From contig OZ024751.1 of NCBI GenBank assembly GCA_964016885.1, positions 26,288,001 through 26,352,000 of the forward strand: DNA of 64,000 nt. Direction: 5' to 3'. This document shows positions 17,904-58,904 of this stretch, piece after piece. Source of the DNA: Eledone cirrhosa (lineage: Eukaryota). Under the pieces are notes generated by a model, which worked only from the letters and a program-made list of their open reading frames with translations, searched no databases and was not told the DNA's origin. The first letter of the stretch is position 1. The number at the start of each line of letters is the position of its first letter. Both the position numbers and the translations under genes were made by a program.

Positions 17904-18058
17904 CTCTGTTCTGTTATTCCTGGTGGAATATATATGTATATGTGTGTGTCTAAATATATATATATTTATATTTAAAAGGTAAACAGATATAACAACACAA
18001 TCGATACAGTATATGGAAGGTATATAATAGGTTAACGCTTGATATAATAGGAAGAGGG

Positions 18059-18094
18059 TCTTAACGTTTCGGATGCTAGTCCTTCATCAGAAGA
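18059..18094 (-). ncRNA. Minimal hammerhead motif (family 2)
   Basis: TCTT-CTGATGA-AGGACTAGCATCC-GAAACGTT-AAGA; the element 17975-18110 ends at a TA-rich tract. Confidence 0.65.
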
Positions 18095-18269
18095 AAGACT
18101 GGGAAATAAGATAGATTGAGGAGATACATAGGTATGTGTGCAGTGTCCACCTTGGCTAGTGTTGCTCAATGACCGAAAGAATTCAAATAATCGATTAATC
18201 AGAGCTATTTATCAAATTATAAATGCAAAGAAATAATAGACAAAAATATATCCATTTTTTCTTCAAAGT

Positions 18270-21578: not shown

Positions 21579-22045
21579 GCACCACTACTACTACTACTAC
21601 TACCACCTCCACCACCACTACTACTACCACCTCCACCACCACCACCACTACTACTACTGCTGCTGCTGCTACATTTTAAAAAGGCCTTGATAGAACTTAT
21701 TCCTGTTTGATACAGTGACTGTGTGTGTGTGTGTGTGTCACATTGCAAGAGAGTGTGTGTCACATTGCAAGAGAGTGTGTGTCACATTACAAGTGTGTGT
21801 GTGTCACATTTCAAGAGTGTGTGTGTCACATTTCAAGAGTGTGTGTGTCACATTGCAAGAGTGTGTGTGTGTGTCACATTGCAAGAGAGTGTGTGTGTGT
21901 CACATTGCAAGAGTGTGTGTGTGTCACATTGCAAGAGAGTTGTCAGCTTATAATGGCAACAGAAATGGACCTGTTATTTTTCTCTAAAGTATTTGTTCTG
22001 ATTCTGCCCCACCCGTCCCTTCAATCTTTCAAATTTCTCATTCTA

Positions 22046-22080
22046 TCTTCTGATGAAGGACTAGCGTCCGAAACTTAAGA
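22046..22080 (+). ncRNA. Minimal hammerhead motif (family 2)
   Basis: TCTT-CTGATGA-A-GGAC-TAGC-GTCC-GAAACTT-AAGA; element 21960-22170 with 3' end at a TA tract. Confidence 0.6.
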
Positions 22081-22246
22081 CTCTCTTCCTGCTATTTCAA
22101 GCGTTAGACTAATATATTCCTTCCATATACTGAACCGTTTGTGTTGTTATTTCTGTTTACATTTTACATACATATATATAAATATAATTTGTCAGCTTGT
22201 GTGTGTGTATGTGTATATATATATGTGTATATATAATTTGTCAGCT

Positions 22247-24481: not shown

Positions 24482-24577
24482 AGATGTCACCATGAATGGA
24501 CCTGTTATCTTTATATAAAGACATTTTTTCCAATTCCACCCCGCCCGTCCCCTCAATCTATCTTATTTCTCATTCTT

Positions 24578-24613
24578 TCTTCTGATGAAGAACTAGCGTC
24601 CGAAACATTAAGA
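24578..24613 (+). ncRNA. Degenerate hammerhead motif (family 2)
   Basis: TCTT-CTGATGA-AGAACTAGCGTCC-GAAACATT-AAGA; element 24495-24705. Confidence 0.5.
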
Positions 24614-25236
24614 CCCTCTTCCTGCTATATCAAGCGTTAACCTAATATATCCCTTCTATATACTGTACCGATTGTGTTGTTATTTCTATTTACCTTTTAC
24701 ATACATATATATATATATACATATATATATACATACACACACACATTCACACACATACCTTATGTAGTCATAGATAAGTCACAATTTTTCCCCCCAAAAT
24801 GTGATTTATCAGTCATACATTGCTCTGGGCTTGAAATATAAAATATTGAAGCCAAAATATTATTTCCAGCTGAGTGGATGTGTAGACAGTGTGAAATAAC
24901 ATGCCATTTTGTCTGGGACTTGAACTCATCATCTTCCAATCATAAACCCAAGACTATACTTACTATGTTGTGCACCTTCACCACCCCACTCACACACATA
25001 CTTCTATGTCCTTATTATTAGCACTACTACTACTACTACTACTACTTATGTTCCACTATTTACCATTTTTAGTTACCTCTAAAGTAAAGAAAGGTTCTAG
25101 AGTGTCGGTTGCTTATATTTTATACATCTGTGTAAACACACACACACACACACACATACGCATATATGCATATGCATGCATACCTCAACGTATATATATA
25201 TAGAGAGAGATAGATACACACATGCATACTTCTACA

Positions 25237-29714: not shown

Positions 29715-30115
29715 ACGATATTAACAAATGGAAACTATATTTATAAAACCATATTTATTTTATTATACATATTTCAAGGACACCACGTTAAATTGTGGTG
29801 TGCTTTCATCAGACAAAATATAATATAGATCAGTTTTATAAATAAATATTGACATACCCTTAAAAAATGCAACCATTACTGTTGGAAGCTCCCGGATATT
29901 TATGAAACTGATCTATATTATATTTTGTCTGATGAAAGCACACCACAATTTAACGTGGTGTCCTTGAAATATGTATAATAAAATAAATATGGTTTTATAA
30001 ATATAGTTTCCATTTGTTAATATCGTGTGTTTACTCCAAATACTTGTTGAGTGCTTTATATCAGTTATAAAAATATTTGCTTGTTGTATCCCAACAATTT
30101 AAATAGAACTTTTGC
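29715..30115 (+). mobile_element. Penelope-like pLTR element (family 1) with ~120-bp inverted arm; hammerhead motif at 29921-29985
   Basis: Arms 29715-29840 and 29900-30026; TATTTTGT-CTGATGA-stem II-GAAATATGTATA-ATAAAATA. Confidence 0.75.
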
Positions 30116-34776: not shown

Positions 34777-36219
34777 CCCACTCCCAAGCTTGAGCCTAAT
34801 ACCTAACACCTTTCGTAACTGTACTCCTTGTTGTTTTAACTTTTCCAATATATATTTATATATATGGACACATATCACACATACAAATACACACATACAA
34901 ATACACACTCATACAAATACACACATACAAATACACACACATACAAATACACACTCATACAAATACACACATACAAATACACACTCATACAAATACACAC
35001 ATACAAATACACACTCATACAAATACACACTCATACAAATACACACTCATACAAATACACACACATACAAATACACACACATACAAATACACACACATAC
35101 AAATACACACACATACAAATACACACTCATACAAATACACACTCATACAAATACACACTCATACATATTACAGAGTGGTGGCTGAGTGAAATGAAAATAT
35201 GAGAGGAGGGGATACTGAAAGAATTCATAATCTTCCAAAAAATCCAACACCACCACCACTGTCTCTCTACCAACACCACCACCACCACTGTCTCTACCAC
35301 CACCAACACCACCACCACCACTGTCTCTCTACCAACACCACCACCACCACTCTACCACCACTGTGTCTCTACCAACATCACCACCACCACCACCGTCTCT
35401 ACCACCACCACCACCACCACCACCACCACCTCTACCACCACCACCACCACCATCAAACAGACCCTCCTATCTCCCCACTAAAACTGGTGAAGTAGAAATA
35501 TGAAATGAGGTCATATGTGGTGACATAGTTCTGGCAGTGGCCAGGCTGAGAGTGTAACTATATATATATGTGTGTGTGTGTGCGCGTATGAGACGTGTGT
35601 GTGTGCGTGAGACGTGTGTGTGTGCGTGAGACGTGTGTGAGTGTTTTACTGTGTTTTTTAGTTATTTTGAGCTCATTTATGACAATCCAGCTATGACCAT
35701 CTTCATGCTTAAGCTTTAAAGTTCTAATTTATGATGGGCATCTGCACAGTTTCTGTCTACCAAATTTCAAATGCCAAGGCTTTGATCAATCAAGATACTT
35801 GCCCAAGGTACCACTCATTATAATTCAATCCCAAATGACACAGTTGTGAAGTGACCTTACCAACATTGGACACTGTCATGTGTTGTCCAGACCACACTGG
35901 ACACTGCAGTGTCTAGTGTGGTCTGGACATGACATGGTGGTGTCCAGTGTGGTCTGGACATGACATGGTGGTGTCTAGTGTGGTCTGGACATGACATGGT
36001 GGTGTCCAGTGTGGTCTGGACATGACATGGTGGTGTCCAGTGTGGTCTGGACATGGCATGTGTGGTTTCAGGTATTAGACTGCGACCATATTGGAGCAAT
36101 GCTGTGAACATATTTCATTGATAATATTGACTCCAGTATGTCTTAGTCACATGCCCTCTTTTTGACAGGATTTCTATAGCCAGTTACCCACCCCTTTACT
36201 GGGCTCATTGTATCATGAC

Positions 36220-37495
36220 ACTAGCACTACCACATTACAGAGTGGACTGGGAGTATAATACACCTTCACTACCACTTTACAGAGTGGACTGGGAGTATTT
36301 TATTGTGACACCAGCACTACCACATTACAGTGTGTACTTGGAGTATTATACACCATCACTACCACTTTACAGAGTGGACTGGGAGTATAATACACCTTCA
36401 CTACCACTTTACAGAGTGGACTGGGAGTATTATACACCATCACTACCACTTTACAGAGTGTACTTGGAGTATTATACACCATCACTACCACTTTACAGAG
36501 AGTACTGGGAGTATTATACACAAGCACTACCACTTTACAGAGTGTACTGGGTGTTTTATACACAAGCACTACCACTTTACAGAGTGTACTGGGAGTATTA
36601 TACACCATCACTACCACTTTACAGAGTGTACTTGGAGTATTATACACCATCACTACCACTTTACAGAGTGTACTGGGAGTATTATACACCATCACTACCA
36701 CTTTACAGAGTGTACTGGGTGTTTTATACATAAGCACTACCACTTTACAGAGTGTACTGGGTGTTATACACAAGCACTACCACTTTACAGAGTGTACTTG
36801 GAGTATTATACACCATCACTACCACTTTACAGAGTGTACTGGGAGTATTATACACAAGCACTACCATTTTACAGAGTGTACTGGGTGTTTTATACACAAG
36901 CACTACCACTTTACAGAGTGTACTGGGAGTATTATACACAAGCACTACCACTTTACAGAGTGTACTGGGTGTTTTATACACAAGCACTACCACATTACAG
37001 AGTGTACTGGGAGTATTATACACCATCACTACCACTTTACAGAGTGTACTTGGAGTATTATACACCATCACTACCACTTTACAGAGTGTACTGGGAGTAT
37101 TATACACAAGCACTACCACTTTACAGAGTGTACTGGGTGTTTTATACACAAGCACTACCACTTTACAGAGTGTACTGGGAGTATTATACACAAGCACTAC
37201 CACTTTACAGAGTGTACTGGGTGTTTTATACACAAGCACTACCACATTACAGAGTGTACTGGGAGTATTATACACCAGCACTACCACTTTACAGAGTGTA
37301 CTGGGTGTTTTATACACAAGCACTACCACTTTACAGAGTGTACTGGGAGTATTATACACCAGCACTACCACTTTACAGAGTGTACTGGGTGTTTTATACA
37401 CAAGCACTACCACTTTACAGAGTGTACTGGGTGTTTTATACACAAGCACTACCACTTTACAGAGTGTACTGGGAGTATTATACACAAGCACCAGT
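36220..37495. repeat. 42-bp minisatellite
   Basis: caagcactaccactttacagagtgtactgggagtattataca x ~30. Confidence 0.97.
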
Positions 37496-41193: not shown

Positions 41194-41777
41194 CGTGTCT
41201 GTGATCTATATACACTGGTCATAGACACACACACACACACACACATATATACATACATATATATATATACACACAACAACACCACCAGCTCTCTCTCTTC
41301 AATTCTCCTCTCCCTCCTTCTATGCCTCTTTCTCTCTCTGTTTATGAAGGTACCCGGAAAAGGAACCCGTGCTCCGATTTACGCGAAACTTGTTTTATTC
41401 CATTTGTATTCCCATTTCAGGGTCAACCTTCTTTCGAAGTATATTCCCATTATGCGCCCTTTTGGCTGTATTACATTACAGAGAAGCAATAACAGAGTTT
41501 TAGTAGTATATAGAGAGATATATAGTAGTATATAGAGAGTATATAGACTGCTAAGATTTTCAAGTTTACAGATTTTTTTTTTCCCTCATCAATGAAGCTT
41601 ATATATAGCATGGGTTTTTATATGTCCACTTTTCCATGCTTGCATATATATATATTTCTTATTGGCAACATGACCCTCCCTAAGTATAACAATATATATA
41701 TATATATATATCATCGTCATTTAATATCCATTTTCCATGTTAGCATGGGTTATATATATATATATATATATATATAT

Positions 41778-41972
41778 AACGAAGGAAATGTGGTAAGGAA
41801 CCGAGTGGACCATAACGCACCAAAGTACTCAATACTTAGGGTAGTAGAGTGAGTAATAGGAACGAGTAGGACCCCGACGGCTGAGCTCAAGCCGTTTCGA
41901 CGGCAAATTCTGGACCAGAATTTGCCGTCGAAACGGCTTGAGCTCAGCCGTCGGGGTCCTACTCGTTCCTAT
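41778..41972 (-). mobile_element. (TA)n-embedded fold-back element (family 6)
   Basis: Perfect 58-bp arms around one base (41856-41972); other copies at 45754-45950 and 42005-42125. Confidence 0.75.
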
Positions 41973-42124
41973 ATATATATATATTGAGAGAGAGAGAAAA
42001 AAAGTATGACGGCTTGAGCTCTGCCGTCGGGGTCATATTTTCCCCTACTACCCACTCTACTACCCTAAGTACTGAGTACTCTGGTGCGTTATGATCCATC
42101 TGGTTCCTTACCTCAACTCCTTTG

Positions 42125-42359: not shown

Positions 42360-42402
42360 GTGCTGGTGAATCTGGGAAGAGTACAATTGTAAAACAGATG
42401 AA
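42360..42402 (+). CDS. GNAI: G-protein alpha(i) subunit, exon 2 (P-loop GAGESGKSTIVKQMK)
   Basis: tctctccag acceptor and gtaagt donor; 43 bp, the size of vertebrate GNAI exon 2; encodes the G1 box. Confidence 0.97.
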
Positions 42403-42512
42403 GTAAGTAATATATAATCTTCATATTTATCTCAAACCTTTCCATTATAATTTATATAAAAACCTTCACTATGGTCTGTACAAAGAACTCATTATGAGAA
42501 AGTTAGTATTGG

Positions 42513-42797
42513 ATGAGGTACCATGTGGTATCTGATGAGGTGCCATGTGGTATCTGGTGATGTGCCATATAACCTCTTGTGAGGTACCATGTAGCCTCTG
42601 GTGAGGTACCATATAGCCTCTGGTGAGGTACCATGTAGCATCTGGTGAGGTACCATGTAGCCTCTGGTGAGGTACCATGTAGCCTCTGGTGAGGTACCAT
42701 GTAGCCTCTGGTGAGGTACCATGTAGCCTCTGGTGAGGTACCATGTAGCCTCTGGTGAGGTACCATGTGGTATCTGGTGAAGTCCATGTAGTATCTG
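42513..42797. repeat. 27-bp minisatellite
   Basis: gaggtaccatgtagcctctggt-containing units. Confidence 0.85.
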
Positions 42798-43738
42798 TTT
42801 CAGCTCTGTGTATTCTGAGTTCCAATCATACTCCTTATCACTAAACCTTTCCAATCTGGCCAACCCCAGCTCTAGTTCTATATCACTAAACCAGCCATAT
42901 CTCTCACCTCTTTCTGGTCAAACCAGCTGTAACCAGCCACTCATACTGATGTTAACGTTTTGTTCTCAAAATAAATATCAAAACCTCATAGACTCAATAT
43001 GTGAGATAAAGCCTTTACCACGTAAATACAATAGTATATATAATGTGAATGTTAAAGGGTTAAACGGTTCCTAATTTAAATTCAAATCTTCCAACATAAT
43101 TTTATATAAGAACCATGTTAAGTTGTTACCCTAGTAAAGGAAGGATTAATAATTTTAGTACTCCCTCCCCCCCAAAAAAAATAATTAATTGAAATAAAGT
43201 ATATATTGGAAATACATTTGTAAAAGGATTAAATTAAAATCTTCCAACATATTTAAATCATATATTAAGTTACTAGCTTAGTAATGAATTAATTAATAAT
43301 TTTAGTAAGTCCCCTAAAATTCTTCATTAATTAATTGAAATAGATTGTATTTCATTAGAAATACTGCCACGGAAGGTTCAAAACCTCCTGTGATTACTTC
43401 TGAGCAGGTAACCTTGGTGAGCTTTGAACTCAGATTGTAAAGGGCCGTAACTCTGTGTCACAAAACCTGTCCAATGCTCTACCGCTTCAGCCAATCTACC
43501 ACCTACCTTATATATAATTGTTTCTACCTTAGGCACAAGGCCAGCAATTTGAAAGGGGGAGGGGAAAGTCGATTAAATCAACCTCAGTACATTACTGGTA
43601 CTTTATTTATCGACCTCGCAAGGGTGAAAGGCAAAGCTAAACTTGGCGGGATTTGAACTCAGAATGTAAAGGGCCGTAACTCTTACGCCACAAAGCAAGG
43701 TGTCTGACGCTCTACCGATCCTCCGCCCTCATGATCAA

Positions 43739-43779
43739 GGGACCGTATCGGATATTAAACTGATAAGAACATACTACAC
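43739..43779 (-). pseudogene. U2 snRNA fragment
   Basis: Minus strand GTGTAGTA--TGTTCTTATCAGTTTAATATCCGATACG matches U2 GUGUAGUAUCUGUUCUUAUCAGUUUAAUAUCUGAUACG (branch-point recognition sequence and stem IIa). Confidence 0.85.
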
Positions 43780-44421
43780 ATTATATGTTACTGATGTTAT
43801 TTAACCCCGGGTCAACCTCAATTGTACCAAACCATTCCAAGTGTGGCCTTCCCCAGGGGTTATATCTTGGTCTGCATCAACTGTTTTTGTTTTGCCACAT
43901 TGTTTAAGACAGTAGGGGGAGGGGGCTCATTTGAGAGAGTTATGGCTGTTATTTCTAGCAAAATGAATGACCACGTAGAAGTCCAGCTTTTATTTATTTA
44001 TTGTTAATTTGTTGCTGCCTTCCTCTAGGATTGAACTTGTGTCGACAATTATTTCACTGTCCTTTCTTTTGAAATGTCAGAGCAAGAATTCAATTGACTA
44101 ATAATTTTGCCATTATTAAACTGGTGCCATTTGACATTAAGGAGGGGGGTGGGGGTATGAGAAACACACACACACAGTCACACACTCACACACACACATA
44201 CATAATTTGCAATTCTCAGTTAATGTGTATGACAGATTGCTTCATATATATATATATATATCAGACAGTCCTATGCGAGCAAGACAACCACTCTTGCCTC
44301 AAGTGGGAAAACTCCCGTCCAAACCCATGCAAGCATGGAACACGGACGTTAAACGATGATGATGATGATGATGATGATGATTGTTATACTTTGGGAGGGT
44401 CATGTTGCCAATAAGAAACTA

Positions 44422-44750
44422 CTTTGTTCTGTCCTACGCCATCTTGTTTTTTTTGAAAAACAAGATGGCGTAGGACAGAACAAAGGAGAGGCACAAAAAC
44501 AAAGAAAAGAATCCCCAGTCACTGATGAGGTCACAGAATGTGTGACGAAAGAACTTTGACAATATATAAACAACCATCTGGTTGTGGAACCAACCAAGCA
44601 ACCGGAAATTTATAAATTTATTATAATAAATTGAAGTGAAAGCAACTGGTGCGTGTGTTTCTTATTGGCAACATGACCCTCCCAAAGTATAACAATATCG
44701 GTTTCAACACACGTTTTCACATAAAGAATGTTGCTAAACAAATTCAGAAA

Positions 44751-44752
<2 letters not shown>
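44422..44752 (+). mobile_element. Penelope-like pLTR element (family 5) with 5' hairpin
   Basis: ~30-bp inverted arms at 44422-44485, a hammerhead, and a 3' end at (TA)n; an internal piece recurs at 41655-41695. Confidence 0.65.
44518..44560 (+). ncRNA. Minimal hammerhead ribozyme (family 5)
   Basis: GTCA-CTGATGA-G-GTCACA-GAATG-TGTGAC-GAAAGAACTT-TGAC. Confidence 0.75.
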
Positions 44753-44798
<46 letters not shown>

Positions 44799-45002
44799 TA
44801 CTTCACCACCACCAATCCCACCACTGCCACACCATTCACCCTGGCAGCTCCCACTTTGTCACACCAATCTCTCTCCCTCACATGCCACATCCCCCTCTCT
44901 TTGCATCTTTCCTTCATTTTAGTCTGTCTTTATTCTACACTCTGAACTGTGTTATTTCTGATGAAGGACATATACCCGACACATTGACTAACTTTCTTTT
45001 AA

Positions 45003-45223
45003 CCCTTTAGCATTCACATTACTCTATATTTACTATTGTATTTTCATGGTAAAGGCTTTACCTCACATAATTATCTCCCATAATATCGAAGCTACGAGAT
45101 TTTGATATTATTTATTTTGAGAACAATATCTCAACATCAGTATGAGTGGCCGATTACGGCTGGTTTGAACAGAAAAAGGTGAGAGAATTCTGGCCAGATA
45201 CGGCCGGTTTAAATGCTAAAGGG
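45003..45223 (+). mobile_element. piggyBac-like MITE, intact
   Basis: TTAA-ccctttagcatt...aatgctaaaggg-TTAA. Partial copies near 17485, 42870, 45603, 52695 and 60525. Confidence 0.85.
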
Positions 45224-45290
45224 TTAAGCGTTAATTAACTGTCAATGCATCCTCTTGTATGCTTGTTTTTTATATATATATATATATATA

Positions 45291-45495
45291 TAGTTATGTA
45301 ATAAACATAAGACAATTATTCCATTTACCAAAGGTTTCATGAAGACAGACGAGCACGACACAGACATCTGAACTTCGTGAAACCTTTGGTAAATGGAATA
45401 ATTGTCTTATGTTGTTTATTACATAACTAAATAGCTCTGTAGCCTACATAGAGCACTCTCCTTTCCTTTACCTTTCCTACGGAAACACTTAATAT
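45291..45495 (+). mobile_element. Fold-back element (family 4)
   Basis: Inverted arms 45291-45345 and 45372-45429; tail homologous to 5990-6062. Confidence 0.7.
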
Positions 45496-45682
45496 ATGTG
45501 TGTGTGTGTGTGTGTGTGCCTGTTAGAATTGTTTTTTAATTAACTAATTTGTTGAATGAAAATATCTTTGTATGTGTGTGCATTTAATTGGGAGTGTGTT
45601 TCTAACCCTTTAGCATTTAAACCGGCCGTATCTGGCCAGAATTCTCTCACCTTTTTCTGGTCAAACCAGCCGTAATCGGCTA

Positions 45683-45753
<71 letters not shown>

Positions 45754-45758
<5 letters not shown>

Positions 45759-45944
45759 AACAAGTAAGACCCCGACGGCTGAGCTCAAGCCGTTTCGACG
45801 GCTAATTCCGTCCAGAATTAGCCGTCGAAACGGCTTGAGCTCAGCCGTCGGGGTCTTACTTGTTCCTATTACCCACTCTACTACCCTAAGTATTGAGTAC
45901 TTTGGTGCGTTATGGTCCACCTGGTTCCTTACCACATTTCCTTC

Positions 45945-45950
<6 letters not shown>
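45754..45950 (+). mobile_element. (TA)n-embedded fold-back element (family 6)
   Basis: Palindrome 45754-45869 followed by a unique tail ending at (TA)n. Confidence 0.75.
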
Positions 45951-45977
<27 letters not shown>

Positions 45978-46539
45978 CCATTGGTCTATCCATTGCTGAT
46001 ACTGTCAGTCACAACTCCTGATATAAGATGACTCCTTTAATGTAGGGACTATAGAAAAATACTGTAAAATGGCATTGGAATGATGTGGTGTTAGGATGTG
46101 TTAGTAACCCTGTGAAAAAGATGTAGAGAAGGCCCTTCAGTCACTTGAACGATATAACAACCACTTTATGCTGGTGCCATCACCAAATGCACCCAGTACA
46201 CTCTAAAGTTGTTAGCATTAAGAAGGGTATCCAGCTGTAGAAACCATGCTAAAAATGGAGCATATTGAGCAAGATGTGGCCCAATGAACTATCAAGGAGG
46301 ACACTTGCTCTTATTAAGTACTGTTTTGGTCTGTAACAAACAGTCGAACCCATGCTAGCAGGGAAAGTGGATGTTAAATGATGATTGAAACATCTCTGTA
46401 AGATTTAGTTCCTTCAGTCTTAGAGTTTTAAGTGAGGAAATAGCAGAAACAGTTTTGTTGACTTAAGAAAACATTTTAGAAATCCCAAAATCAAGGAATT
46501 AACAACTACTACTACTACTACTGTCATTACAACAACTAT

Positions 46540-46587
<48 letters not shown>

Positions 46588-47744
46588 AACAATAATAATA
46601 CACCCTAACATTTTTTAACTGTGACTATCTTATTCCACCCATTGAAGAATGTTCTAGTTGGGTTGTGGTGAGTGCTTGAGGTGGTCGTGTTGGTGGTGGG
46701 TATTTGAGGTGGTGGTGTTGGTAGAGATATCTGTGGTGTTGGTGGTGGGTGTTTGAGGTGGTGGTGTTGGTGGAGATAGCTGTAGCAGTGACAATGGTGG
46801 AGGTGGTGGTGACAGCTGGGGTGGTAGTGGCAACAAAGGGAACAGATTCCACACCCCCTCTATCTACAATACAAGAAAGTCTTTATATTTATCTACAAAT
46901 CTTTCAGGTGGTTTCTTTGAAAACAGTTAAATAACATCAACACACCACACCTCACCACACTACACTGTACCACACCACACCACTACACACCACACCTCCC
47001 AACACACTACACTATACTACTCCACACACACCACATCTCACTACACCACACACTACACTACACAACACCACATCACATCTCACCACACCACCTCTGTACT
47101 ACACACCTTACTACATCTCACTACAGCACACACTATACTACATCACACTACACTACACTACACGGCACTGCACTGCATTGCACCACACCCAAATATACCC
47201 TGCCTCCCCTCCACAGAAACACAAACTATTTTACACATCACCAAGCCTCTTACTATCACACTGCACCTGTGCACAACACCAACATTTATTGCATCTCACT
47301 GCACCACACCACACCACACACCTCACCACCTCTACACCACACCATACACCTCACCACACTACACCACACCACACCACCCCACTGCACCTCTCTACACCAC
47401 ATCACCACACCTCTCTACATCACACCACCCCACTGCACCTCTCTACACCACCACTCCACCACACCCCACTGCACCTCTCTACACCACCACTCCACCACAC
47501 CACACCCCACTGCACCTCTCTACACCACCACTCCACCACACTCCACTGCACCTCTCTACACCACCACACCTCTCTACACCACACCACCACACCACACCAC
47601 CTCTCCACCACACCACCACACCACTGTAATGACATTAATTCAAATGACAATAGACTGAAATAAAAACATGGAATTCCAGTTGTTTAAATAATCTGTTGAG
47701 AGGAAATGAGAAGATTTGGAGTGTGTGTGTGGGGGGGGGGGGTA

Positions 47745-48425
47745 GTAGTAATGGTGGTGGTGGTGGTGGTGTTGATGATAGCAGTAATGGTGGTGGTGGT
47801 GGTGGTGGTGTTGATGATAGCAGTAATGGTGGTGGTGGTGGTGTTGATGATAGCAGTAATGGTGGTGGTGGTGGTGGTGGTGTTGATGATAGCAGTAATG
47901 GTGGTGGTGGTGGTGGTGGTGTTGATGATAGCAGTAATGGTGGTGGTGGTGGTGGTGGTGTTGATGATAGCAGTAATGGTGGTGGTGGTGGTGGTGGTGT
48001 TGATGATAGCAGTAATGGTGGTGGTGGTGGTGTTGATGATAGCAGTAATGGTGGTGGTGGTGGTGGTGTTGATGATAGCAGTAATGGTGGTGGTGGTGGT
48101 GTTGATGATAGCAGTAATGGTGGTGGTGGTGGTGGTGTTGATGATAGCAGTAATGGTGGTGGTGGTGGTGTTGATGATAGCAGTAATGGTGGTGGTGGTG
48201 GTGTTGATGATAGCAGTAATGGTGGTGGTGGTGGTGGTGGTGTTGATGATAGCAGTAATGGTGGTGGTGGTGGTGTTGATGATAGCAGTAATGGTGGTGG
48301 TGGTGGTGGTGTTGATGATAGCAGTAATGGTGGTGGTGGTGGTGTTGATGATAGCAGTAATGGTGGTGGTGGTGGTGTTGATGATAGCAGTAATGGTGGT
48401 GGTGGTGGTGTTATGACATCAGTAA
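47745..48425. repeat. GGT-rich minisatellite (gttgatgatagcagtaat + (ggt)n)
   Basis: About 19 units with variable GGT number. Confidence 0.95.
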
Positions 48426-49614
48426 TGTGGCATCATCATCATCATCATAGTTGACATTGTTGTCATCATTGTGCGTAGTAACAAAGAAAGAGAGAAGGAA
48501 AGTGTGTATGTATATATGTTATATATATGTGTGTGTGTGTGTTATATATGTGTGTATGTAATATATATGTTATATGTGTATGTATATGTTATACATATGT
48601 GTATGTATGTATATGTTGTGTGTGTGTGTAGACTGGGTAGAGTGAAACTGCTTAGAAACCCATCAGATGAACTGTTCACTATCACACTTGGTCACCACTA
48701 AAACCCATCAGATGGATTGTTCCCTATCACACTTGGTCACCTCCAGTCTCCCTGAGAATTGTGTTATTGGTACATGTGCCTATGGAATGCTCAGCCACTT
48801 ATGTCATAAATAGGCTGCTCTGTTGATCAAACAACTGGAAGACTCATCATGAAAACATGGCCTAGAGGTTGGGGTGTTGGACTTAGGTTTGCAATGTCAT
48901 GGGTTCAATTGATGGACAGGTTTCTGCATTGTGTTCTTGAGCAAAATATCTTATTTTATATTGCTCCAGTACACTCAGCTGCAAATGAGTACCAGTAGTA
49001 TCTACGGGTTTAACACTGCAATGGACTGGTGTCCTGTCTAGGGAGAAGTCTGGTATTCTCTCAGTCACCGAGAAAACTGGGATAAGCATCAACCTCATGA
49101 ACCTCTGCTTTGGGACAGAAAGGAAAACAATGGACACTATTACCAGCATTTAGACCAGGTCTAACCAAAACAACTGCAATATAGCATATAACCCTGTTGT
49201 TCACAATGTTTTCACTACAAAAGACTTCTTTTATTTAACTCTTAACATCTTGTAATGATTTTGCAGAAAATATTTTAAAACAGTTTATTTTAATTCAAAT
49301 GTTTGTAGTATCTTTACTAATGGACAGATCATTTTTTAAATGTTTAGCGTTTGACTAAAGTTTTTAAATGTTTAATGTGATGTGAACCTGGTGTACAGCA
49401 TCAGTTGTCCATAGGAAAGTAGTGATTTGTCAATTGACAGACATACGATAGTCACTAAGGTGAGCACGCCTTGCTCAAGTTAGTGTAAATGTGTTTTCAC
49501 ATGCCAACAAGCTCAGACATTCATTCAGTTCTTTCAGAGTGTGTGAAATTTTATATTAAGCACTCTTAGCATTTATTTCTCCTCTGAAATATTTTTGTCT
49601 TCTTTCTATTCCAG

Positions 49615-49756
49615 AATTATCCATGAGAAAGGCTACACTCAAGAAGAATGTCTACAATACAAACCAGTTGTGTACAGCAATATTATGCAATCTATGATGG
49701 CTATTATTCGGGCTATGGGCTTGCTGAAAATTAATTTTGGTTCTTTAGAACGAGAG
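49615..49756 (+). CDS. GNAI: G-alpha(i) exon 3
   Basis: ttccag/gtaagt; 142 bp; [47 protein letters not shown]; phase matches exon 2. Confidence 0.97.
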
Positions 49757-49864
49757 GTAAGTTGATGAAATTGAACATAATCTGGGGCAGCAAATAGGCA
49801 GAATTGTTAGAGTATCCGACAAAATACTTTGATATTTCTTCCCTTAGCTTTTTTTACCATGAGT

Positions 49865-51320
49865 TCAAATCCTGCCTGAGTGTAGTGGGAGTGGACCACA
49901 CCAGTTGGAATGGTTATTCCATGTCTCAAATCCTGCCTGAGTGTAGCGGGAGTGGACCACACCAGTTGGAATGGTTATTCCATGTCTCAAATCCTGCCTG
50001 AGTGTAGCGGGAGTGGACCACACCAGTTGGAATGGTTATTCCATGTCTCAAATCCTGCCTGAGTGTAGTGGGAGTGGACCACACCAGTTGGAATGGTTAT
50101 TCCATGTCTCAAATCCTGCCTGAGTGTAGTGGGAGTGGACCACACCAGTTGGAATGGTTATTCCATGTCTCAAATCCTGCCTGAGTGTAGTGGGAGTGGA
50201 CCACACCAGTTGGAATGGTTATTCCATGTCTCAAATCCTGCCTCAGTGTAGTGGGAGTGGACCACACCAGTTGGAATGGTTATTCCATGTCTCAAATCCT
50301 GCCTGAGTGTAGTGGGAGTGGACCACACCAGTTGGAATGGTTATTCCATGTCTCAAATCCTGCCTGAGTGTAGTGGGAGTGGACCACACCAGTTGGAATG
50401 GTTATTCCATGTCTCAAATCCTGCCTGAGTGTAGCGGGAGTGGACCACACCAGTTGGAATGGTTATTCCATGTCTCAAATCCTGCCTCAGTGTAGTGGGA
50501 GTGGACCACACCAGTTGGAATGGTTATTCCATGTCTCAAATCCTGCCTGAGCGTAGCGGGAGTGGACCACACCAGTTGGAATGGTTATTCCATGTCTCAA
50601 ATCCTGCCTGAGTGTAGTGGGAGTGGACCACACCAGTTGGAATGGTTATTCCATGTCTCAAATCCTGCCTGAGTGTAGTGGGAGTGGACCACACCAGTTG
50701 GAATGGTTATTCCATGTCTCAAATCCTGCCTGAGTGTAGTGGGAGTGGACCACACCAGTTGGAATGGTTATTCCATGTCTCAAATCCTGCCTCAGTGTAG
50801 TGGGAGTGGACCACACCAGTTGGAATGGTTATTCCATGTCTCAAATCCTGCCTCAGTGTAGTGGGAGTGGACCACACCAGTTGGAATGGTTATTCCATGT
50901 CTCAAATCCTGCCTGAGTGTAGTGGGAGTGGACCACACCAGTTGGAATGGTTATTCCATGTCTCAAATCCTGCCTGAGTGTAGTGGGAGTGGACCACACC
51001 AGTTGGAATGGTTATTCCATGTCTCAAATCCTGCCTCAGTGTAGTGGGAGTGGACCACACCAGTTGGAATGGTTATTCCATGTCTCAAATCCTGCCTGAG
51101 TGTAGTGGGAGTGGACCACACCAGTTGGAATGGTTATTCCATGTCTCAAATCCTGCCTCAGTGTAGTGGGAGTGGACCACACCAGTTGGAATGGTTATTC
51201 CATGTCTCAAATCCTGCCTGAGTGTAGTGGGAGTGGACCACACCAGTTGGAATGGTTATTCCATGTCTCAAATCCTGCCTGAGTGTAGCGGGAGTGGACC
51301 ACACCAGTTGGAATGGTTAT
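49865..51320. repeat. 61-bp homogeneous tandem array
   Basis: tcaaatcctgcctgagtgtagtgggagtggaccacaccagttggaatggttattccatgtc x ~24. Confidence 0.98.
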
Positions 51321-51711
51321 TTCAACATGTCTCCTTTTCCATCCTCTGGAACGTTTTCTCCATTCTGTCTACTGGGACCATGAGGCAGCCAGCACATGGG
51401 TTCCCCCACACACCATCTGGGACCTCGTCATTAGGATAGCGATGTTATGAAGGTCCTCTTCAGAATAAAACTGTAGTTATGTTGGAATTAGTGCAGTAAG
51501 TTGCCATAGTTACAATAAATATAAAGATCCCATAACTCCTTCTGGAGTCGTATATGTATATGTCTCTCAGCTGGAACACATAATATAAATATATATATAT
51601 ATATATACATACATACACGTGTACATATACACAATGCTCCATTGTCACCACCATCATTACAGGGTATTGCCCTCATTTAATGGTAAAAAGAATGAGTGGA
51701 TATATATATGG

Positions 51712-52050
51712 AGGCACATGGCTTAGAGCATTGGCCTTGCAATCGAAAGGTTGTGAGTTCAATTCTCAGACCGGGTGATGTGTTGTTTCCTTGAGCAAGA
51801 CACTTTATTTCACATTGCTCCAGTTTACTCAGCTGTAGAAATGAGATGATAGGGACTGGGGTCCATATCATTCCACTGCAAAGTGGTCGTGTAGGTGCCA
51901 CGGAATAAAAGCACCCAGCACTCACTGTAAATGAGGTTGGTGTTAGGAAGGGCATCCAGCTGTAGAAATCAAGCCAGAATCAGTTGCTGTCCCACCCTTG
52001 CAAGCAGGGAAAAGCGGACGTATGATGATGATGATGATGATGATGATGAT
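51712..52050 (+). mobile_element. tRNA-derived SINE with RTE-like tail
   Basis: Near-identical to 25942-26270. Confidence 0.85.
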
Positions 52051-52923
52051 ATATTACTAACCCATGCTAGCATGGAAAATGGATGTTAAACAATGATGAT
52101 GATATATATATATATTTAAGTTATTTTGATCAGCTTATTGTCAAACTGGTGGTTCTGGAAGGCACATCATAATGCAACGAATTACTAAAGCACTCAACAT
52201 TACAGCATATCATCCAGTACAGCCTTCTGCCCCAAATACAAACAATGGGTGCACAAGAGATGTAGTGGGATCTCAGCAGCATCATCATCATTGCCATCAC
52301 CATCACCATCCCCACCATTATCACCACCATCATCATGTTTACCCTAACCCTGTCAACAATGTTTCATGTGATGTGTCATTACTGTGTCTCTAATTAGTGT
52401 CTTTCTAGGTTAATTACTGGAACACATCTTACTCAGCATAGTAACAGATGAATGGCCTTACTAATGCCATCCATAGTTACAGATTATACTGGGTATATAT
52501 CATTGTGGCACCTGCATCAGAGAGGTTGCCATGTCCTTCACACAAAGAGTCCCCTATACCCTTTGTGACATGATTTCTCTGGCTGGATGCCCTCCCTATC
52601 ATCAACCATTTTACAGAGTGTACTAGGTGTATTTTATTGTGGTACCAACATTAGACAGGTGGTCATGCCACTGATGTAGTAGAAGAGCCCTGTAGCATTT
52701 AAACCGGCCATATCCAGCCACTCATACTGATGTTAAGGTATTGTTCTCAAAATAAATAATATCAAAATCTCATAGATTCAATATTATGTGAGATAAAGCC
52801 TTTAACACGAAACTACAATTGTAAATATAGAGTAATGTAAATGCTAAAAGGTTAAATGTTTATGAAAGAGTTAAATTAAAAATCTTAATTGCATTTTTTG
52901 TATTTTTTTTTACTTTTCTCCAG

Positions 52924-53081
52924 AATGACGCCAAAACCCTTTTTGAAATTTCCCAAAATTCTGATGAATGTGACATGACACCTGAATTATCTGCCCTTTA
53001 CATGCGACTCTGGAGTGACCCTGGTGTAATGTCGTGTGTGGCTCGATCTCGGGAGTATCAGCTCAATGATTCAGCTCAATA
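52924..53081 (+). CDS. GNAI: G-alpha(i) exon 4 (helical domain)
   Basis: ctccag/gtaagt; 158 bp; NDAKTLFEISQNSDECDMTPELSALYMRLWSDPGVMSCVARSREYQLNDSAQY. Confidence 0.96.
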
Positions 53082-53563
53082 GTAAGTTAACCCTAAAGCT
53101 CTCTATATACCTATCCCACTTCTGCAACCTTTTCATTTGACATTTTTCTGTTTTGTTTCATTTGTTCTGTCTTCATTACTGTAATTGGTAAAGTAATCTA
53201 TGATACATTTTAAAAAGATATATATAAACTGCATTACGGCGATATGTATTTTAATAATTGTTTCTACTTTAGGCACAAGGCCAGCAATTACCCAGTGCAT
53301 TACTGGTACTTTATTTTATCGACCCTGTAATGTATTTTAATAATGTGTTCAGAAAAAATAAAAAGGACACAGTTTCACAGTCCTTCAATCATTATATAGT
53401 AGATGGTTTACTTTGCCTTTCATCCTTACGGGGTCGATAAAATAAAGTACCAGTAATGCACTGGGTAATTGCTGGCCTTGTGCCTAACGTAGAAACAATT
53501 ATATAGTAGATGGTATTAAGATAACAAAATATTCATACATAAAGTCTTGTAGGAAGGTTTTTA

Positions 53564-54043
53564 CCATATATTTACTTCTATGTAAACCGAGAAATATGTG
53601 ATAAAAAAAATTTATGATATGGGAGTCGGCTTATATTCAAGGTCAATATTTGTCCGATTTTCAACCCAACTTCAAATTCTATGTAAATGAGTTGCTAAAA
53701 TATTTTTACTTTGGAAGCAAATATTACCTGACTTTTGTTTTGAAGGTAAATATTTCACGGGTTTCATTTTCTTATTTTGTTATGTTTTGAATGAATTTGG
53801 CCTTCAAAACAATGATAAATCAGTAAGATGTCATTATGTAATGGAGTTCTGAAACAATATACTCCAAATGACACTTTAAACATTTTAAATATCAAAATAT
53901 TAAAACTTCATAAATATATTCTTCACTCATGAGAATTTCTAAAGCACACACCATCTAAACATTGTTGGTTTATACAGGGTTTAGATCTTTGTCCATCTCT
54001 CACACATAAAATAGACAGTCAGCTTATATTTGAGTATATACAG
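53564..54043. mobile_element. Tc1/pogo-type MITE, decayed
   Basis: Ends resemble those of 7741-7926 (gcttatatttgagtatatacag-ta). Confidence 0.55.
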
Positions 54044-55611
54044 TATATATCTCAGGGAAGCAGAGGGGATGAGTTTATAACAAAAACGTTAAAATAGAGA
54101 GCTTTGGGTCAGACTTTAGGCCAGTTTCAGGCAGTTTACTATCAAAAGGGTTAAAGTTTTGTTATATTTCTAATGAAAAGCATTGAATATGGGTTTTAAA
54201 TAATTGTAAGATTGGAGGGATTTACCTAATATAGCTGGGGTTTGAAGGGGAACGAAGGTTCTAACATAAAATTACCATGGAAGATTTCTAGATAAATATA
54301 AACATTTTAAAAACAAGCAGTTTGTGTGTGTGTCAGTCTGTATGGGTGTGTGTATGTGTGTCAGTCAGTCTATATGTGTGTGTGTCAGGCTGTAGGTATG
54401 TGTGTGTGTCAGTCTGTATGCGTGTGTGTCAGTCTATACGTGTGTGTGTGTGTGTGTGTGAATATATTTAGTTAAAGTAACGTTGGTAGCTGTTATATAA
54501 GCCATGAGACTGGCAGGGAGTATTCTAGTTGTAAGTCTATATATGGCTACAGGTTTCTATGTATGTCTGTGTGTCCACGTGTATGAACATATGTGTGAAT
54601 TGTATACATGTATGTATATATATATGTGGGAGTGGCAATGTCACAGATTGCCTTACACCAAATGTATACAACACAAACACACACATACATGCAAACTTGT
54701 ACACACACACAGACAAGCTTGTATACATACATACACAGACATCTACATGATGGGCAGGTCACCACCACCTAGTTTAATAAAAACATCAGTTTTATCTGAA
54801 TTTAGGTTGAGTTAGAATTGGGATAGTCTGAATAGGGTGGCTCTTGTTGGCTCCTTGGCAGCAGCGGTAGAGGGTCGGACGCCATGCTTTGACGCAAAGA
54901 GTTACGGCCCTTTACGATCTGAATTCAAATCCCGTCGAGGTTAACTTTGCCTTTAATCCTTACGGGGTCGATAAAATAAAGTACCAGTAATGCACTGAGT
55001 AATTGCTGGCCTTGTGCCAAAAGTAGAAACAATTATATATATATATATGTGTGTATACATGTGGCTGTATATATATATATATGTGTGTAAAAGTATGTCA
55101 GTATGTAACCCACGCCACCACCATCACTACTACCACCACCACCACTATTACCACCACCACCACTATTACCACCACTACCACCACTTACCACCACCACCAC
55201 TACCATTACTACCACTACCACTACTACTATTACCATCACCACCACTACCATCACTGGGTGAAGCTGGTAGGTCAGATGAGGGTAGTTGGGAGGCAAGCCA
55301 GATGTGAGGGTGGGGGTGATTGGTAATATCGATGGATTGTCACACAATATGCTTTGCGACGTTTAATTACAACTTTCCACATTCTGAGTTCAAACCCCAC
55401 CAAGGTCAATTTTGCATTTCATCTTTCTGGGGTCAATATGAGGTCCCAGTTTAAGTATTAGGAGCAATAGAACTGACTTTCCTTTTCCCCCAAAATTGTT
55501 GACCTCATGGGCAGAAAGATTTATTTTAGTCATTTACGTTGGAACAACTACATTTCATATTTTGTCCATGTTTGTGAAGTGAAGCTGTTAAGATATTTCT
55601 GTATTTTCCAG

Positions 55612-55740
55612 TTACCTAAACGCCTTGGAGAGAATCTCCCAACCTAACTACATACCAAATATTCAGGATGTTTTACGGACTAGAGTGAAAACAACTGGAA
55701 TTGTAGAGACACATTTTACATTTAAGGAACTACGTTTCAA
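55612..55740 (+). CDS. GNAI: G-alpha(i) exon 5 (switch I)
   Basis: ttccag/gtaagt; 129 bp; [43 protein letters not shown]. Confidence 0.97.
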
Positions 55741-56069
55741 GTAAGTCTTTCTCTTCTTTCACCCTTATCTAGATCATTGGGGCCTTAATCATTGAAGGCC
55801 TACTGAGAATGCTTGCTGTTGCTTAACGAGCTACAGTTCGGGGGCAGGTCTCCCTGCTACAGTTAGGGACCACGTCTCCCTGCCTCAGTTAGGGACCAAA
55901 TTTGATAAGGTCATCAATATACAAAGAAATAAAAGAATGTTTTACAGCCAGATGGTATCAACCCTTTTCGTCACTTCTTACAACATGCAGAGATACAATG
56001 TACCTATTCTAAAAGCTCTCTCTCTCTCTCTCTGTCCCTCACTCTCACTGCCACTATCTATCTCTCCAG

Positions 56070-56199
56070 AATGTTCGATGTTGGAGGTCAAAGATCCGAG
56101 AGGAAGAAGTGGATCCACTGTTTTGAAGGAGTCACAGCTATAATATTTATTGTGGCCATGAGTGAATATGACTTGATGTTGGCTGAGGACCAAGAAATG
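56070..56199 (+). CDS. GNAI: G-alpha(i) exon 6 (DVGGQ, switch II)
   Basis: ctccag/gtgagt; 130 bp; [43 protein letters not shown]. Confidence 0.98.
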
Positions 56200-56720
56200 G
56201 TGAGTTTATCACATAACACACTGTGACATGACACTACAACTCACAACACAATGAAGCTACAACTCTATTACACACAATACACAACACTATAACTATATAA
56301 CTCACAACATATGAGACATAACACTCTTATAGTATTATCTGACAGGATTTCACATGTTAAGGACCCACAACTGTGGAGTTTATATCAGACATTGTGTTGA
56401 CAACTTTCAATGGCTCTGTTTAAATAAATTTTCTTTTATTATATCAAATATTTTAACATCTCTGGTAGGACATTTCTTTTTAGATGTTATTTCAGTGAAG
56501 TATTATAATAGGAAATAATAGTAATAACATGTGAGGAATGTGTTGTTCCCACCTACTTCCACCTCCTCCACACCCTTGCTGTTAATGTCCTCAGTAAATC
56601 ATTCATTTAATAACATTAAAAAAACAAGGGATGAGTCCATGTGGAAAATCATATATACATACATATATATATACACACACACGCACGCGTGTATATATAT
56701 ATATACATACACACGCACGC

Positions 56721-56759
<39 letters not shown>

Positions 56760-56774
56760 CATACACACGCACGC

Positions 56775-56823
<49 letters not shown>

Positions 56824-56838
56824 CATACACACGCACGC

Positions 56839-56881
<43 letters not shown>

Positions 56882-56896
56882 CATACACACGCACGC

Positions 56897-56934
<38 letters not shown>

Positions 56935-56936
56935 GC

Positions 56937-56972
<36 letters not shown>

Positions 56973-57002
56973 GCGTGTATATATATATATATATATATAC
57001 GC

Positions 57003-57041
<39 letters not shown>

Positions 57042-57731
57042 CGCGTGTATATATATAAAGATATAAATGGACCAAAGAAAGATTAGTATCATCTGGAAGA
57101 GACACCATCCCTCAACTTTCTCTCTTTCGACAATAAAATACATTCTGTTGAAGCAACTACATGGTGGAACAGACATTTAAACATTAAACACACACATATA
57201 CATATATACACACACACACACTATTAGGTTTGCTTAATATTTATCATTTATTTCATGGTGTCAACATTTTCATTGTACTCTTTATGACTTGGTGTCTGTC
57301 ACAGTTGTACTGTAGTCCCTGTCACAGTTGTACTGTAGTCAATGACAATATTGACATGACAAATTAAATGTTAAATGCGTTTTAACTGTTAACCTTCTGC
57401 ACCAGCTGTAACTGTATTGTAAAGACATTAAGAGACACAAGACACTATGACACCATCATATTACTCTCTAAAATGCTCGGTTAGCATTGTCATATTGAAA
57501 AGATTCCAGACTAATACTACAAGTCAAGTTTTCACAACTATCTGTCCACTAGTGAAGATACTTTAAACATTTGAATTAAATCTTTTCTGCTAGATTATTA
57601 CAGGCTTGAGTGGGGTTAATGGTGAAAATGACTGTAATAGTTAAATAATTAATGTTACATTTGAATTGAAAATTGATTTTAACTTCTTTTTTAAATTATT
57701 AATTTTTCTCTGCTCTTCTCCTTGAAACCAG

Positions 57732-57885
57732 AACCGAATGATGGAAAGTATGAAATTATTTGATTCAATCTGTAACAATAAATGGTTTCTGGAAACTTCT
57801 ATTATGCTCTTCCTAAACAAGAAAGATTTATTTGAAGAAAAAATCAGAAACTCTCCCCTCACAAGTTGCTTCCCGGAGTACGAAG
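57732..57885 (+). CDS. GNAI: G-alpha(i) exon 7 (NKKD)
   Basis: accag/gtaaat; 154 bp; [51 protein letters not shown]. Confidence 0.98.
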
Positions 57886-58713
57886 GTAAATATTGTCTTC
57901 CTTCTGTAACTAATTGTATTTTGTAATTTACTATGGTGAGTCTTTGATAGTTTAGTCTTGTATTTGTTTACATTTATTTTGGCAATGGATAGGGTTATGT
58001 AAGAATATATATCTTTCCCCACACCTGCCGTCAGCCAATCTCTATATAACCTCTCCTTGTCCCCTTCCCCTGACACCTGTGGATTGGTAGAACATTGGGC
58101 CACATTCTTCACGGCCTAGTTACATCCCTTTACATTCCGAGTTCAAATTCTACCAAGATTAGCTTTCATCCTTACCGTACCAGTAACACACTAAGGTCGA
58201 TTTAATTGACTTAACTCTTCCTTTCAAGAAACTATTATTATAAAGTTCAAATCCCGCCGAGGTTAACTTTGCCTTTCATCCTTTTGGGGTCGATAAAATA
58301 AAGTACCAGTAATACACTGAGTAATTGCTGGCCTTGTGCCAAAAGTAGAAACAATTATTATAAAGATAGGGGATTATCAGAATCGTGTTGGACAAGATGC
58401 TTTGCAGCATCTGTACCAGATCTTTACATTCTGAGCTCTTTAATCTTTACAGGGTCAATAAAATAAAGTACCAGTATCACACTGGGGTAGATTTAATTGA
58501 CTTATTCCTTCCCTTCAAATTGCTGATCTTTTGCCTAAATCAGAAACAATATTTAGGCCAGAATAAGTAGAGCACCAAACAAATACTAAGTGTTTCAGTT
58601 CTTTATATTCTGGGTTCAAATCTTGCCAAAAATCAACTGTCTCCAAATTGCTGGCCTTGTGCCTAAATTAGAAACAATTATCATTGTTTATCATCTTCTA
58701 ATATCTCCACCAG

Positions 58714-58904
58714 GTGGCAACAACTATGAAGAGTCTGCGGCTTATATACAACTCCAGTTTGAAAACTTAAACAAAAGAAAAGATGTGAAAGAGATTTACA
58801 CACACTTCACCTGTGCCACAGATACTAACAATGTGCAGTTTGTCTTTGATGTGGTCACTGATGTTATAATCAAGAATAATCTTAAAGACTGTGGTCTCTT
58901 TTAA
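58714..58904 (+). CDS. GNAI: G-alpha(i) exon 8, last coding exon
   Basis: caccag acceptor; 191 bp to TAA; contains TCAT and ends [11 protein letters not shown], the Gi C-terminus with the pertussis-toxin cysteine. Exons 2-8 plus a standard 118-bp exon 1 would give 354 aa. Confidence 0.98.

What the first reader, a model, noticed from the sequence alone, without database searches (positions are those of the whole stretch)
41856..41972. Perfect 117-bp GC-rich palindrome whose arms co-vary between copies
Seen: 58-bp perfect arms around A41914. The copy at 45754-45869 differs (gaacAagtaAgacc vs gaacGagtaGgacc; ggcTaattc vs ggcAaattc), and every difference is mirrored in both arms. Both copies share a central hairpin followed by GAAAC and a single-copy tail ending at (TA)n. 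Inference: the second arm is templated from each copy at insertion, again centred on what may be a hammerhead stem II. The two copies flank exon 2 in opposite orientation.
Basis: partly seen in the sequence, partly recalled or inferred. Interest (0 to 1): 0.7.

Follow-up and report, generated by a model that had tools for sequence, protein, structure and literature searches.

The report
Double-primed Penelope stump with variant hammerhead
The palindrome is real and is one of tens of thousands of short head-to-head pieces of a Penelope-type jumping gene, likely made when both ends of a DNA cut copied the same RNA, and a small class of sister copies stops exactly at the predicted cut site of the element's unusual hammerhead RNA motif, which likely records that motif cutting in the living animal.

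Summary
The 117-bp palindrome is real: 58-bp arms around A41914; the sister copy has 55-bp arms. It is neither a MITE nor a hammerhead stem II. It is a 5'-truncated, head-to-head insertion of the end repeat of a Hydra-clade Penelope-like retroelement in (TA)n, with at least 27,720 copies. The parent carries a type I hammerhead motif with a U3-A8 core, not CUGANGA. The palindrome centre lies in its loop II, where both arms stop (likely the RNA 5' end).

The arms share subfamily alleles (88 of 92), but later mutations are one-sided. Centres differ (54 types in 63). One arm always starts at site 1 and the other at site 2, 78 nt on, and the tail-less arm can hold kilobases the tailed arm lacks. 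This favours two reverse transcripts of one RNA over DNA fold-back.

About 200 sister insertions stop exactly at the predicted GUC|G cut site (2 loci one base off), biased to U3-A8 subfamilies: likely fossil evidence of cleavage in vivo.

The architecture, the two start sites and U3-A8 are in print, and this scan noted the same readings before on other DNA, also in this genome. No RNA data.

The parts
41779..41855 (-). Copy 1 tail: stretch between start site 1 and start site 2 of the parent's end repeat; abuts (TA)n at 41751-41778
   Evidence: in the parent this stretch runs on into the ORF
41856..41915 (-). Copy 1 tailed arm: 3' half of the hammerhead motif (end of loop II, 3' strand of stem II, GAAAC, stem III, GUC, stem I 3' strand) up to site 1
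41915..41972 (+). Copy 1 tail-less inverted arm; ends at site 1 in (TA)n; shares one C with the other arm at the junction, which makes the centre look perfect
   Evidence: junction classes
41996..42124 (+).
   Evidence: 88% to copy 2
42360..42402 (+). 43-bp G-protein alpha exon (GAGESGKSTIVKQMK), host context only
45754..45808 (-). Copy 2 tail-less inverted arm, starting in (TA)n at 45686-45756
45810..45866 (+). Copy 2 tailed arm; one extra C at 45809; predicted ribozyme cut between 45849 and 45850 in the parent RNA (the copy itself lacks the 5' core)
45867..45946 (+). Copy 2 tail from site 1 to site 2, followed by (TA)n at 45947-45975

Best explanation
The palindrome is a short head-to-head insertion of the end repeat of a Hydra-clade Penelope-like retroelement in a (TA)n tract, likely made when both cut target strands primed reverse transcription on the same element RNA at two fixed internal sites 78 nt apart and the two copies, which would both have run off the RNA's 5' end, were joined end to end. 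Shown: identity with the parent's repeat, two fixed outer ends, variable centres clustered at TTTAGTCC in loop II, shared source alleles, no later homogenisation. Inferred: double priming on RNA; the 5' end at TTTAGTCC being the transcription start; joining by microhomology or a few untemplated bases. A minor class (about 2%) stops at the predicted hammerhead cut, so cleaved RNA was likely also used as template. The copies in this window lack the 5' core, are predicted to be dead as ribozymes, and are likely neutral intron passengers.
For: Arm plus tail runs directly into a PLE ORF in 29 of 30 loci found with the ORF start (read by eye). Long copies are repeat-ORF-repeat with RT and GIY-YIG motifs. 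Of 17 long elements with a visible 3' end, 13 end at site 1 and 3 at site 2 (20 fetched), so site 1 is a start point in its own right. Head-to-head pairs combine one site-1 and one site-2 end in 52 of 57 short pairs from arm-only searches and 18 of 20 long pairs. In 13 long pairs with a located junction, the tail-less arm is longer by over 100 nt in 6 (e.g. 1449 vs 150, 1664 vs 214, 3295 vs 496), the tailed arm in 5, equal in 2. In 92 position-ordered copies, 63 have the inverted arm; 60 of 92 tailed arms and 48 of 63 inverted arms end 50-62 nt from site 1; junctions are 27 overlaps, 6 blunt, 30 inserts. Arms share the allele in 88 of 92 copies against 0.29 expected at random; rare two-source chimeras exist (L159; L361). 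In vitro, a Poseidon PLE extends both target strands and starts at two internal RNA sites that bound the tail (PMC11167929). Cut-site class: 96 blunt matches, 355 matches with 1-6 nt inserts, 39-40 of the first 57 loci non-native (hand count), against 2 loci one base off.
Against: No RNA run holds the family, so neither the RNA 5' end nor cleavage was seen. The cap-G test was inconclusive: before AGTCC, T 68, C 21, G 14, A 2 of 105. Unequal arms could also come from deletions at the centre after insertion. Some junctions look like short snap-back synthesis (L165, L142), so fold-back chemistry is present at least at the joint. Four of 57 short pairs scored site1+site1 or site2+site2. Blunt cut-site junctions can also arise through a CG microhomology, and in the insert class the depletion of the mismatched-core subfamily is not significant (13 of 40 vs 40 of 83, p = 0.12). 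In Anolis no reads ended at the cut site and cleavage was not needed in vitro.
Confidence: 0.72

Rival explanations
1. Single cDNA fold-back: one cDNA from site 2 snaps back at its 3' end, copies itself, and the endonuclease opens or ends the second strand at site 1; unequal arms come from later deletion.
For: Explains allele sharing; 3 mirrored non-subfamily changes against about 0.15 expected by double hits (my arithmetic); short snap-back inserts at some junctions; centres favour self-complementary words (AATT, TCGA, AGCT).
Against: The inverted arm is at least 5 nt longer than the tailed arm in 12 of 63 short copies and holds up to 2.8 kb absent from it in long pairs; chimeric arms from two subfamilies; 19 of 63 copies have both arms reaching the RNA end, often with unrelated inserts; site 1 is the usual 3' end of whole elements.
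Confidence: 0.2
2. A fixed palindromic non-autonomous element (MITE, or a SINE-like master with a built-in hairpin) that is copied whole.
For: Near-identical 191-nt copies on many contigs; (TA)n on both sides; some junctions recur.
Against: Ends are not inverted repeats of each other; 54 centre types in 63 copies; the same junction recurs in different subfamilies (L149, L169, L229); sizes form a continuum from about 115 bp to 5.6 kb; the sequence is the end repeat of a PLE.
Confidence: 0.04
3. The arms are kept alike after insertion by gene conversion or strand switching, or by selection for a hairpin RNA acting on the G-alpha exon.
For: Both window copies have no mismatch between arms; they lie in opposite orientation around an exon.
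Against: One-arm changes accumulate at 1.9% per base, like the tail (1.7% non-recurrent, 2.4% in all); copy 1's rare allele is one-sided in 19 of 20 loci scored with a second arm over the site. With over 27,000 copies, flanking an exon is ordinary.
Confidence: 0.04

Closest known systems
Hydra clade of C-terminal EN+ Penelope-like elements, nearest listed Hydra-1_Obim (Craig et al. 2021, PMC8557442; passages, section 11, supplement searches)
   Same: RW-R/K and DKT motifs, CxCx5C linker before GIY-YIG, ORF region under 3 kb, (TA)n target.
   Different: A different family: its diagnostic words are absent from the supplement. Hydra-1_Obim has a canonical CTGAAGA core and no pLTR on record; this family has pLTRs and a U3-A8 core with long stem II, 35-40-nt loop II and a full stem III.
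PLE insertion units with an inverted 5'-truncated copy and a one-sided tail (PMC8557442 section 6 passages; PMC2377424 passages)
   Same: Inverted repeat next to a truncated copy, tail at one end only, microsatellite target.
   Different: Tail is 78 nt, not 30-40; most insertions are under 200 bp; the inverted arm can be the longer one.
Internal initiation by Poseidon of Anolis (Frangieh et al. 2024, PMC11167929; parts 1-2 of 4 read)
   Same: Two fixed start sites bound the tail; both target strands are extended.
   Different: Here both start sites carry TAT/TTAT that match the (TA)n target, whereas PAc starts without homology; here genomic copies end at the predicted ribozyme cut, which was not seen in Anolis reads.
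U3-A8 minimal hammerheads of Schistosoma Cercyon PLEs (Cervera and De la Pena 2014, PMC4209133; parts 1-2 of 4 read)
   Same: Same core covariation, extra bases at the 5' end of stem II, palindromic loop III.
   Different: Not minimal: stem III has 5-6 bp and the hammerhead fold is within 0-2.7 kcal/mol of the best fold.
L1 twin priming (recalled, not read here)
   Same: Second target strand primes internally on the RNA.
   Different: In L1 the inverted part is an upstream segment; here both primers copy the same segment, giving a palindrome plus tail.

Membership tests
EN+ Penelope-like element (parent) | Single ORF region with RT and C-terminal GIY-YIG endonuclease | tested here: met
   YRDD, FLDV, VIY..YIG motifs in order in broken copies; homologs carry PF01541, PF26215; atlas hits include RVT_1 clusters. 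Direct Pfam scans gave no hit.
EN+ Penelope-like element (parent) | pLTRs in tandem or inverted arrangement | tested here: met
EN+ Penelope-like element (parent) | One-sided tail between two fixed ends | tested here: met
   52 of 57 short and 18 of 20 long pairs; length 78 nt
Hydra clade | RWK-type motif, DKT, CxCX5C linker | tested here: met
   against section 11
Hydra clade | CCHH motif absent from the endonuclease | tested here: inconclusive
   Not evident by eye in five translated broken copies; no alignment to reference ENs was run
Hydra clade | Placement in the RT tree | not tested
   No reference set on the script machine; likeness to the printed Hydra alignment read by eye
Hydra clade | Canonical hammerhead core | tested here: not met
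   Position 8 is A in 4,629 matches and another base in 60
Type I hammerhead ribozyme (parent repeat) | Three stems around the core, GAAA, NUH triplet, 3-8 pair | tested here: met
   U3-A8 in about 69 of the first 100 matches, C3.A8 mismatch in 31 (hand count); position 7 takes all four bases. Rfam gave no hammerhead hit
Type I hammerhead ribozyme (parent repeat) | Self-cleavage | not testable with these tools
   Indirect only: copies ending at the predicted site
Type I hammerhead ribozyme (window copies) | 5' core and 5' strand of stem I present | tested here: not met
   Both are lost upstream of the centre
MITE | Terminal inverted repeats and uniform internal structure | tested here: not met
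MITE | Fixed-length target site duplication | tested here: inconclusive
   Both flanks are (TA)n; no empty site seen
Non-LTR retrozyme | Tandem monomers with complete hammerheads | tested here: not met
   Dispersed single units lacking the core; definition from search listing and passages

The most novel reading that the evidence does not exclude
Tens of thousands of these insertions are a fossil record of the Penelope reaction in vivo: one RNA is primed by both target strands at two fixed sites, and the meeting point maps the RNA's 5' end. That end is mostly a start in loop II and, in a few hundred cases, exactly the cut made by a natural U3-A8 hammerhead, most often in the subfamilies whose core pair is intact. 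This would be in vivo evidence that a PLE ribozyme cuts and that its cut product is retrotransposed.
Probability: 0.62. Interest if true: 0.62.

Novelty: new member of a known kind. Interest (0 to 1): 0.4.

Why it matters
How PLEs make their inverted copies and what their hammerheads do are stated as open in PMC8557442 and PMC11167929. This family gives counts that separate double priming from fold-back and a base-precise mark of ribozyme cleavage with a built-in natural control (U3-A8 against C3.A8 subfamilies), so a cheap cleavage assay and 5'-end sequencing could settle both. The window's own palindrome is an ordinary dead copy. Such stubs are easily mistaken for MITEs or miRNA hairpins by annotation tools (Rfam sub-threshold miRNA hits).

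Tried and rejected
Canonical CTGANGA upstream: 21 and 20 genome matches; on reading, junction products, chimeras with other families, arm mutations or unrelated repeats. Neptune assignment: my first guess, dropped after the motif comparison with Hydra. Rfam: no hammerhead family in the rows shown for the window or in four long copies. Pfam: nothing significant for 7 ORF pieces. Expression, small RNAs, A-to-I: no RNA holder listed; the 3 mirrored non-subfamily changes are not A>G in sense. Empty insertion site: none seen in four contig sets swamped by the repeat, which says nothing either way. Cap-G signature: inconclusive. A spliced form restoring CUGAAGA: only about ten such junctions genome-wide, most explained by the inverted arm. 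Armless copies starting at the cut site directly after (TA)n: 7 matches, too few to use. The Fisher value printed is wrong (key slip) and was redone; one search had a faulty pattern, redone. Literature searches for twin priming in PLEs or for truncation at the cut site listed no paper making these claims; subscription papers and bioRxiv supplements were not visible.

Full report
Observation. The stretch 41856-41972 has 58 perfectly paired bases on each side of A41914 and 56% GC; the sister copy at 45754-45869 has 55-bp arms around CGTCCA. Both fold far better than 200 shuffles each (z = -20 and -23). Each copy has a 78-nt tail on one side and (TA)n on both. A third, shorter copy at 41996-42124 was missed. 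The copies lie in introns of a G-alpha gene around the 43-bp exon 42360-42402; later exons are at about 49616-58900. The host looks like an octopus (my inference from repeat content and the nearest published family; 3.0 Gb).

Abundance. The unit gave 2,138 first-look candidates, 5 copies in 200 kb of unselected DNA, 12,748 exact matches to a 30-mer of the young subfamilies, 22,278 to an arm 30-mer and 27,720 to a tail 32-mer. The reversed-pattern controls of these three exact searches gave 0.

Parent. One locus showed arm and tail running into an open frame. Searching with that frame gave 30 loci; in 29 (by eye) the tail end abuts the ORF leader. Twenty were extended to 9 kb: most read end repeat, about 3 kb with broken ORF, end repeat. 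[quoted passage not shown] Pfam itself gave no hit. These motifs match the Hydra clade as described in section 11 of PMC8557442; the family is not Hydra-1_Obim. No tree was built.

Ribozyme. No native CTGANGA precedes the hairpin. Long copies read ACCCC-UUGANAA-G..CGGCUAUU-[loop II]-UAGCCG-UC-GAAA-CGGCU-[loop III]-GCCG-UC-GGGGU, a type I hammerhead motif with U3-A8. Position 8 is A in 4,629 matches and other in 60; position 7 takes all four bases. The hammerhead fold is within 0-2.7 kcal/mol of the best fold in five real copies. U3-A8 is in print for Schistosoma PLEs (PMC4209133). So the palindrome centre is the end of loop II, and the 'central hairpin' is produced by the inversion. The window copies lack the 5' core.

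How the second arm is made. I read 92 of the first 100 position-ordered matches. Sixty-three have the inverted arm, starting at site 1 next to (TA)n. Tailed arms end 52-62 nt from site 1 in 60 of 92, inverted arms 50-62 nt in 48 of 63; there are 54 different centres, with 27 overlaps, 6 blunt joints and 30 inserts. The palindrome is therefore built at each insertion. The inverted arm is longer in 21, shorter in 30, equal in 12. Of 17 long elements with a visible 3' end, 13 end at site 1, 3 at site 2, 1 elsewhere. Head-to-head pairs join one site-1 and one site-2 end in 52 of 57 short pairs from loci picked by arm-only patterns and in 18 of 20 long pairs (one complex, one untyped). In the 13 long pairs whose junction was located (5 with 200-900 unassigned bases left out), the tail-less arm is longer in 6, by up to 2.8 kb, the tailed arm in 5, equal in 2. 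A cDNA folding on itself cannot supply sequence it lacks unless large deletions followed. Two primed copies of one RNA explain all of this and match the in vitro behaviour of an Anolis PLE, which extends both strands and starts at two internal sites that bound the tail (PMC11167929).

Co-variation. Among 134 palindromic copies of 218 collected, 92 had a common allele in both arms; 88 agreed, against 0.29 expected at random (the set includes similarity-picked loci). In 57 position-ordered copies (1,344 paired sites) there were 50 one-arm changes and 8 mirrored, 5 of them subfamily alleles; the one-arm rate (1.9%) equals the tail rate (1.7-2.4%). Copy 1's rare variant has 73 matches at 71 loci and is mirrored at 2; of 29 loci read, 1 was mirrored, 19 had the common base in the other arm, 9 were scored as having no second arm there. 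An independent contig set also shows the common base at over 99% of depth. Mirrored differences are thus source alleles copied twice, not continuing repair. Chimeras with arms from two subfamilies are rare (L159; 2 of 96).

Cut-site class. Ninety-six matches join both arms bluntly at the predicted cut; 20 were fetched and all are separate (TA)n-flanked insertions. A CG microhomology could give the same joint, so I looked for inserts: 355 matches, and in the first 57 loci 40 have non-native inserts, mostly A or T, with both arms ending at the cut in 39 (hand count). The same search one base further gave 2 loci. By hand count, the subfamily whose long copies often have a C3.A8 mismatch (9 of 14) makes up 13 of 96 blunt cases against 40 of 83 in a control junction class and 46 of 92 in the census (p = 5e-7 and 6e-8); one U3-A8 subfamily makes up 58 of 96 against 16 of 83 (p = 3e-8). 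In the insert class that enrichment holds (19 of 40, p = 0.002) but the depletion does not (13 of 40, p = 0.12), and the second U3-A8 subfamily keeps about its usual share. This is indirect evidence of cleavage in vivo, in about 2% of insertions.

Limits. No RNA run was listed, so start site, cleavage, editing and effects on the exon are untested. The cap-G test was inconclusive. The census comes from the first 47 Mb of one contig and from exact-match patterns, which favour young copies. Deletions after insertion cannot be excluded for single cases.

Standing. The architecture (PMC8557442, passages), the two start sites (PMC11167929) and U3-A8 (PMC4209133) are published. An octopus repeat annotation (PMC13282606, passages), a retrozyme preprint (10.64898/2026.07.22.740005, passages) and a Penelope promoter study (PMC2377424, passages) do not describe this family in the passages seen. 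Seven searches listed no paper on double priming or cut-site truncation in PLEs. Earlier notes of this scan reached the same readings on other DNA, including this genome. I had reached double priming before reading them; they prompted the check for Hydra rather than Neptune and the cap test, and they are not independent support. Verdict: a real but ordinary copy of a new Hydra family; the family's statistics make two open mechanistic questions testable. Interest 0.4.

Noticed in passing
window 10960-11230 and 29780-30000: Two palindromes of another family with a complete CTGATGA..GAAA motif on each strand, same head-to-head layout.
   Followed up: no
window 44422-44560: 26-bp-arm hairpin followed by a CTGATGA hammerhead motif of a third family; a chimera of that family with ours, joined at a shared CAGAAT, is in L034.
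   Followed up: partly
window 18030-18110 (-), 22020-22110 (+), 24560-24640 (+): Three copies of a small canonical hammerhead-like repeat.
   Followed up: no
window 42360-58900: G-alpha gene of the Gi type (C-terminal KDCGLF; class recalled); exon 1 not found in the window.
   Followed up: partly
window 49743-51445 and 36210-37491: 61-bp tandem array at about 99% identity, just after the exon at about 49616, and a 42-bp array.
   Followed up: no
L196 (-) hammerhead region: In the subfamily most enriched at the cut site, the stem I bulge (CUGGU) is complementary to loop II (ACCAG): a possible activating pseudoknot; seen by eye.
   Followed up: no
L148, L180, L224, L228 junctions: Long A or T runs at the arm ends next to TTTAGTCC, suggesting reiterative copying at the RNA end.
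   Followed up: no
G000:C1, first 100 rows: 25 minus-then-plus pairs of the hammerhead core 0.1-5.4 kb apart, 24 sharing the same variant (hand count): long palindromic insertions are common in this family.
   Followed up: yes
window 1187-1259 (+): Weak tRNA match (32 bits), perhaps a SINE head.
   Followed up: no
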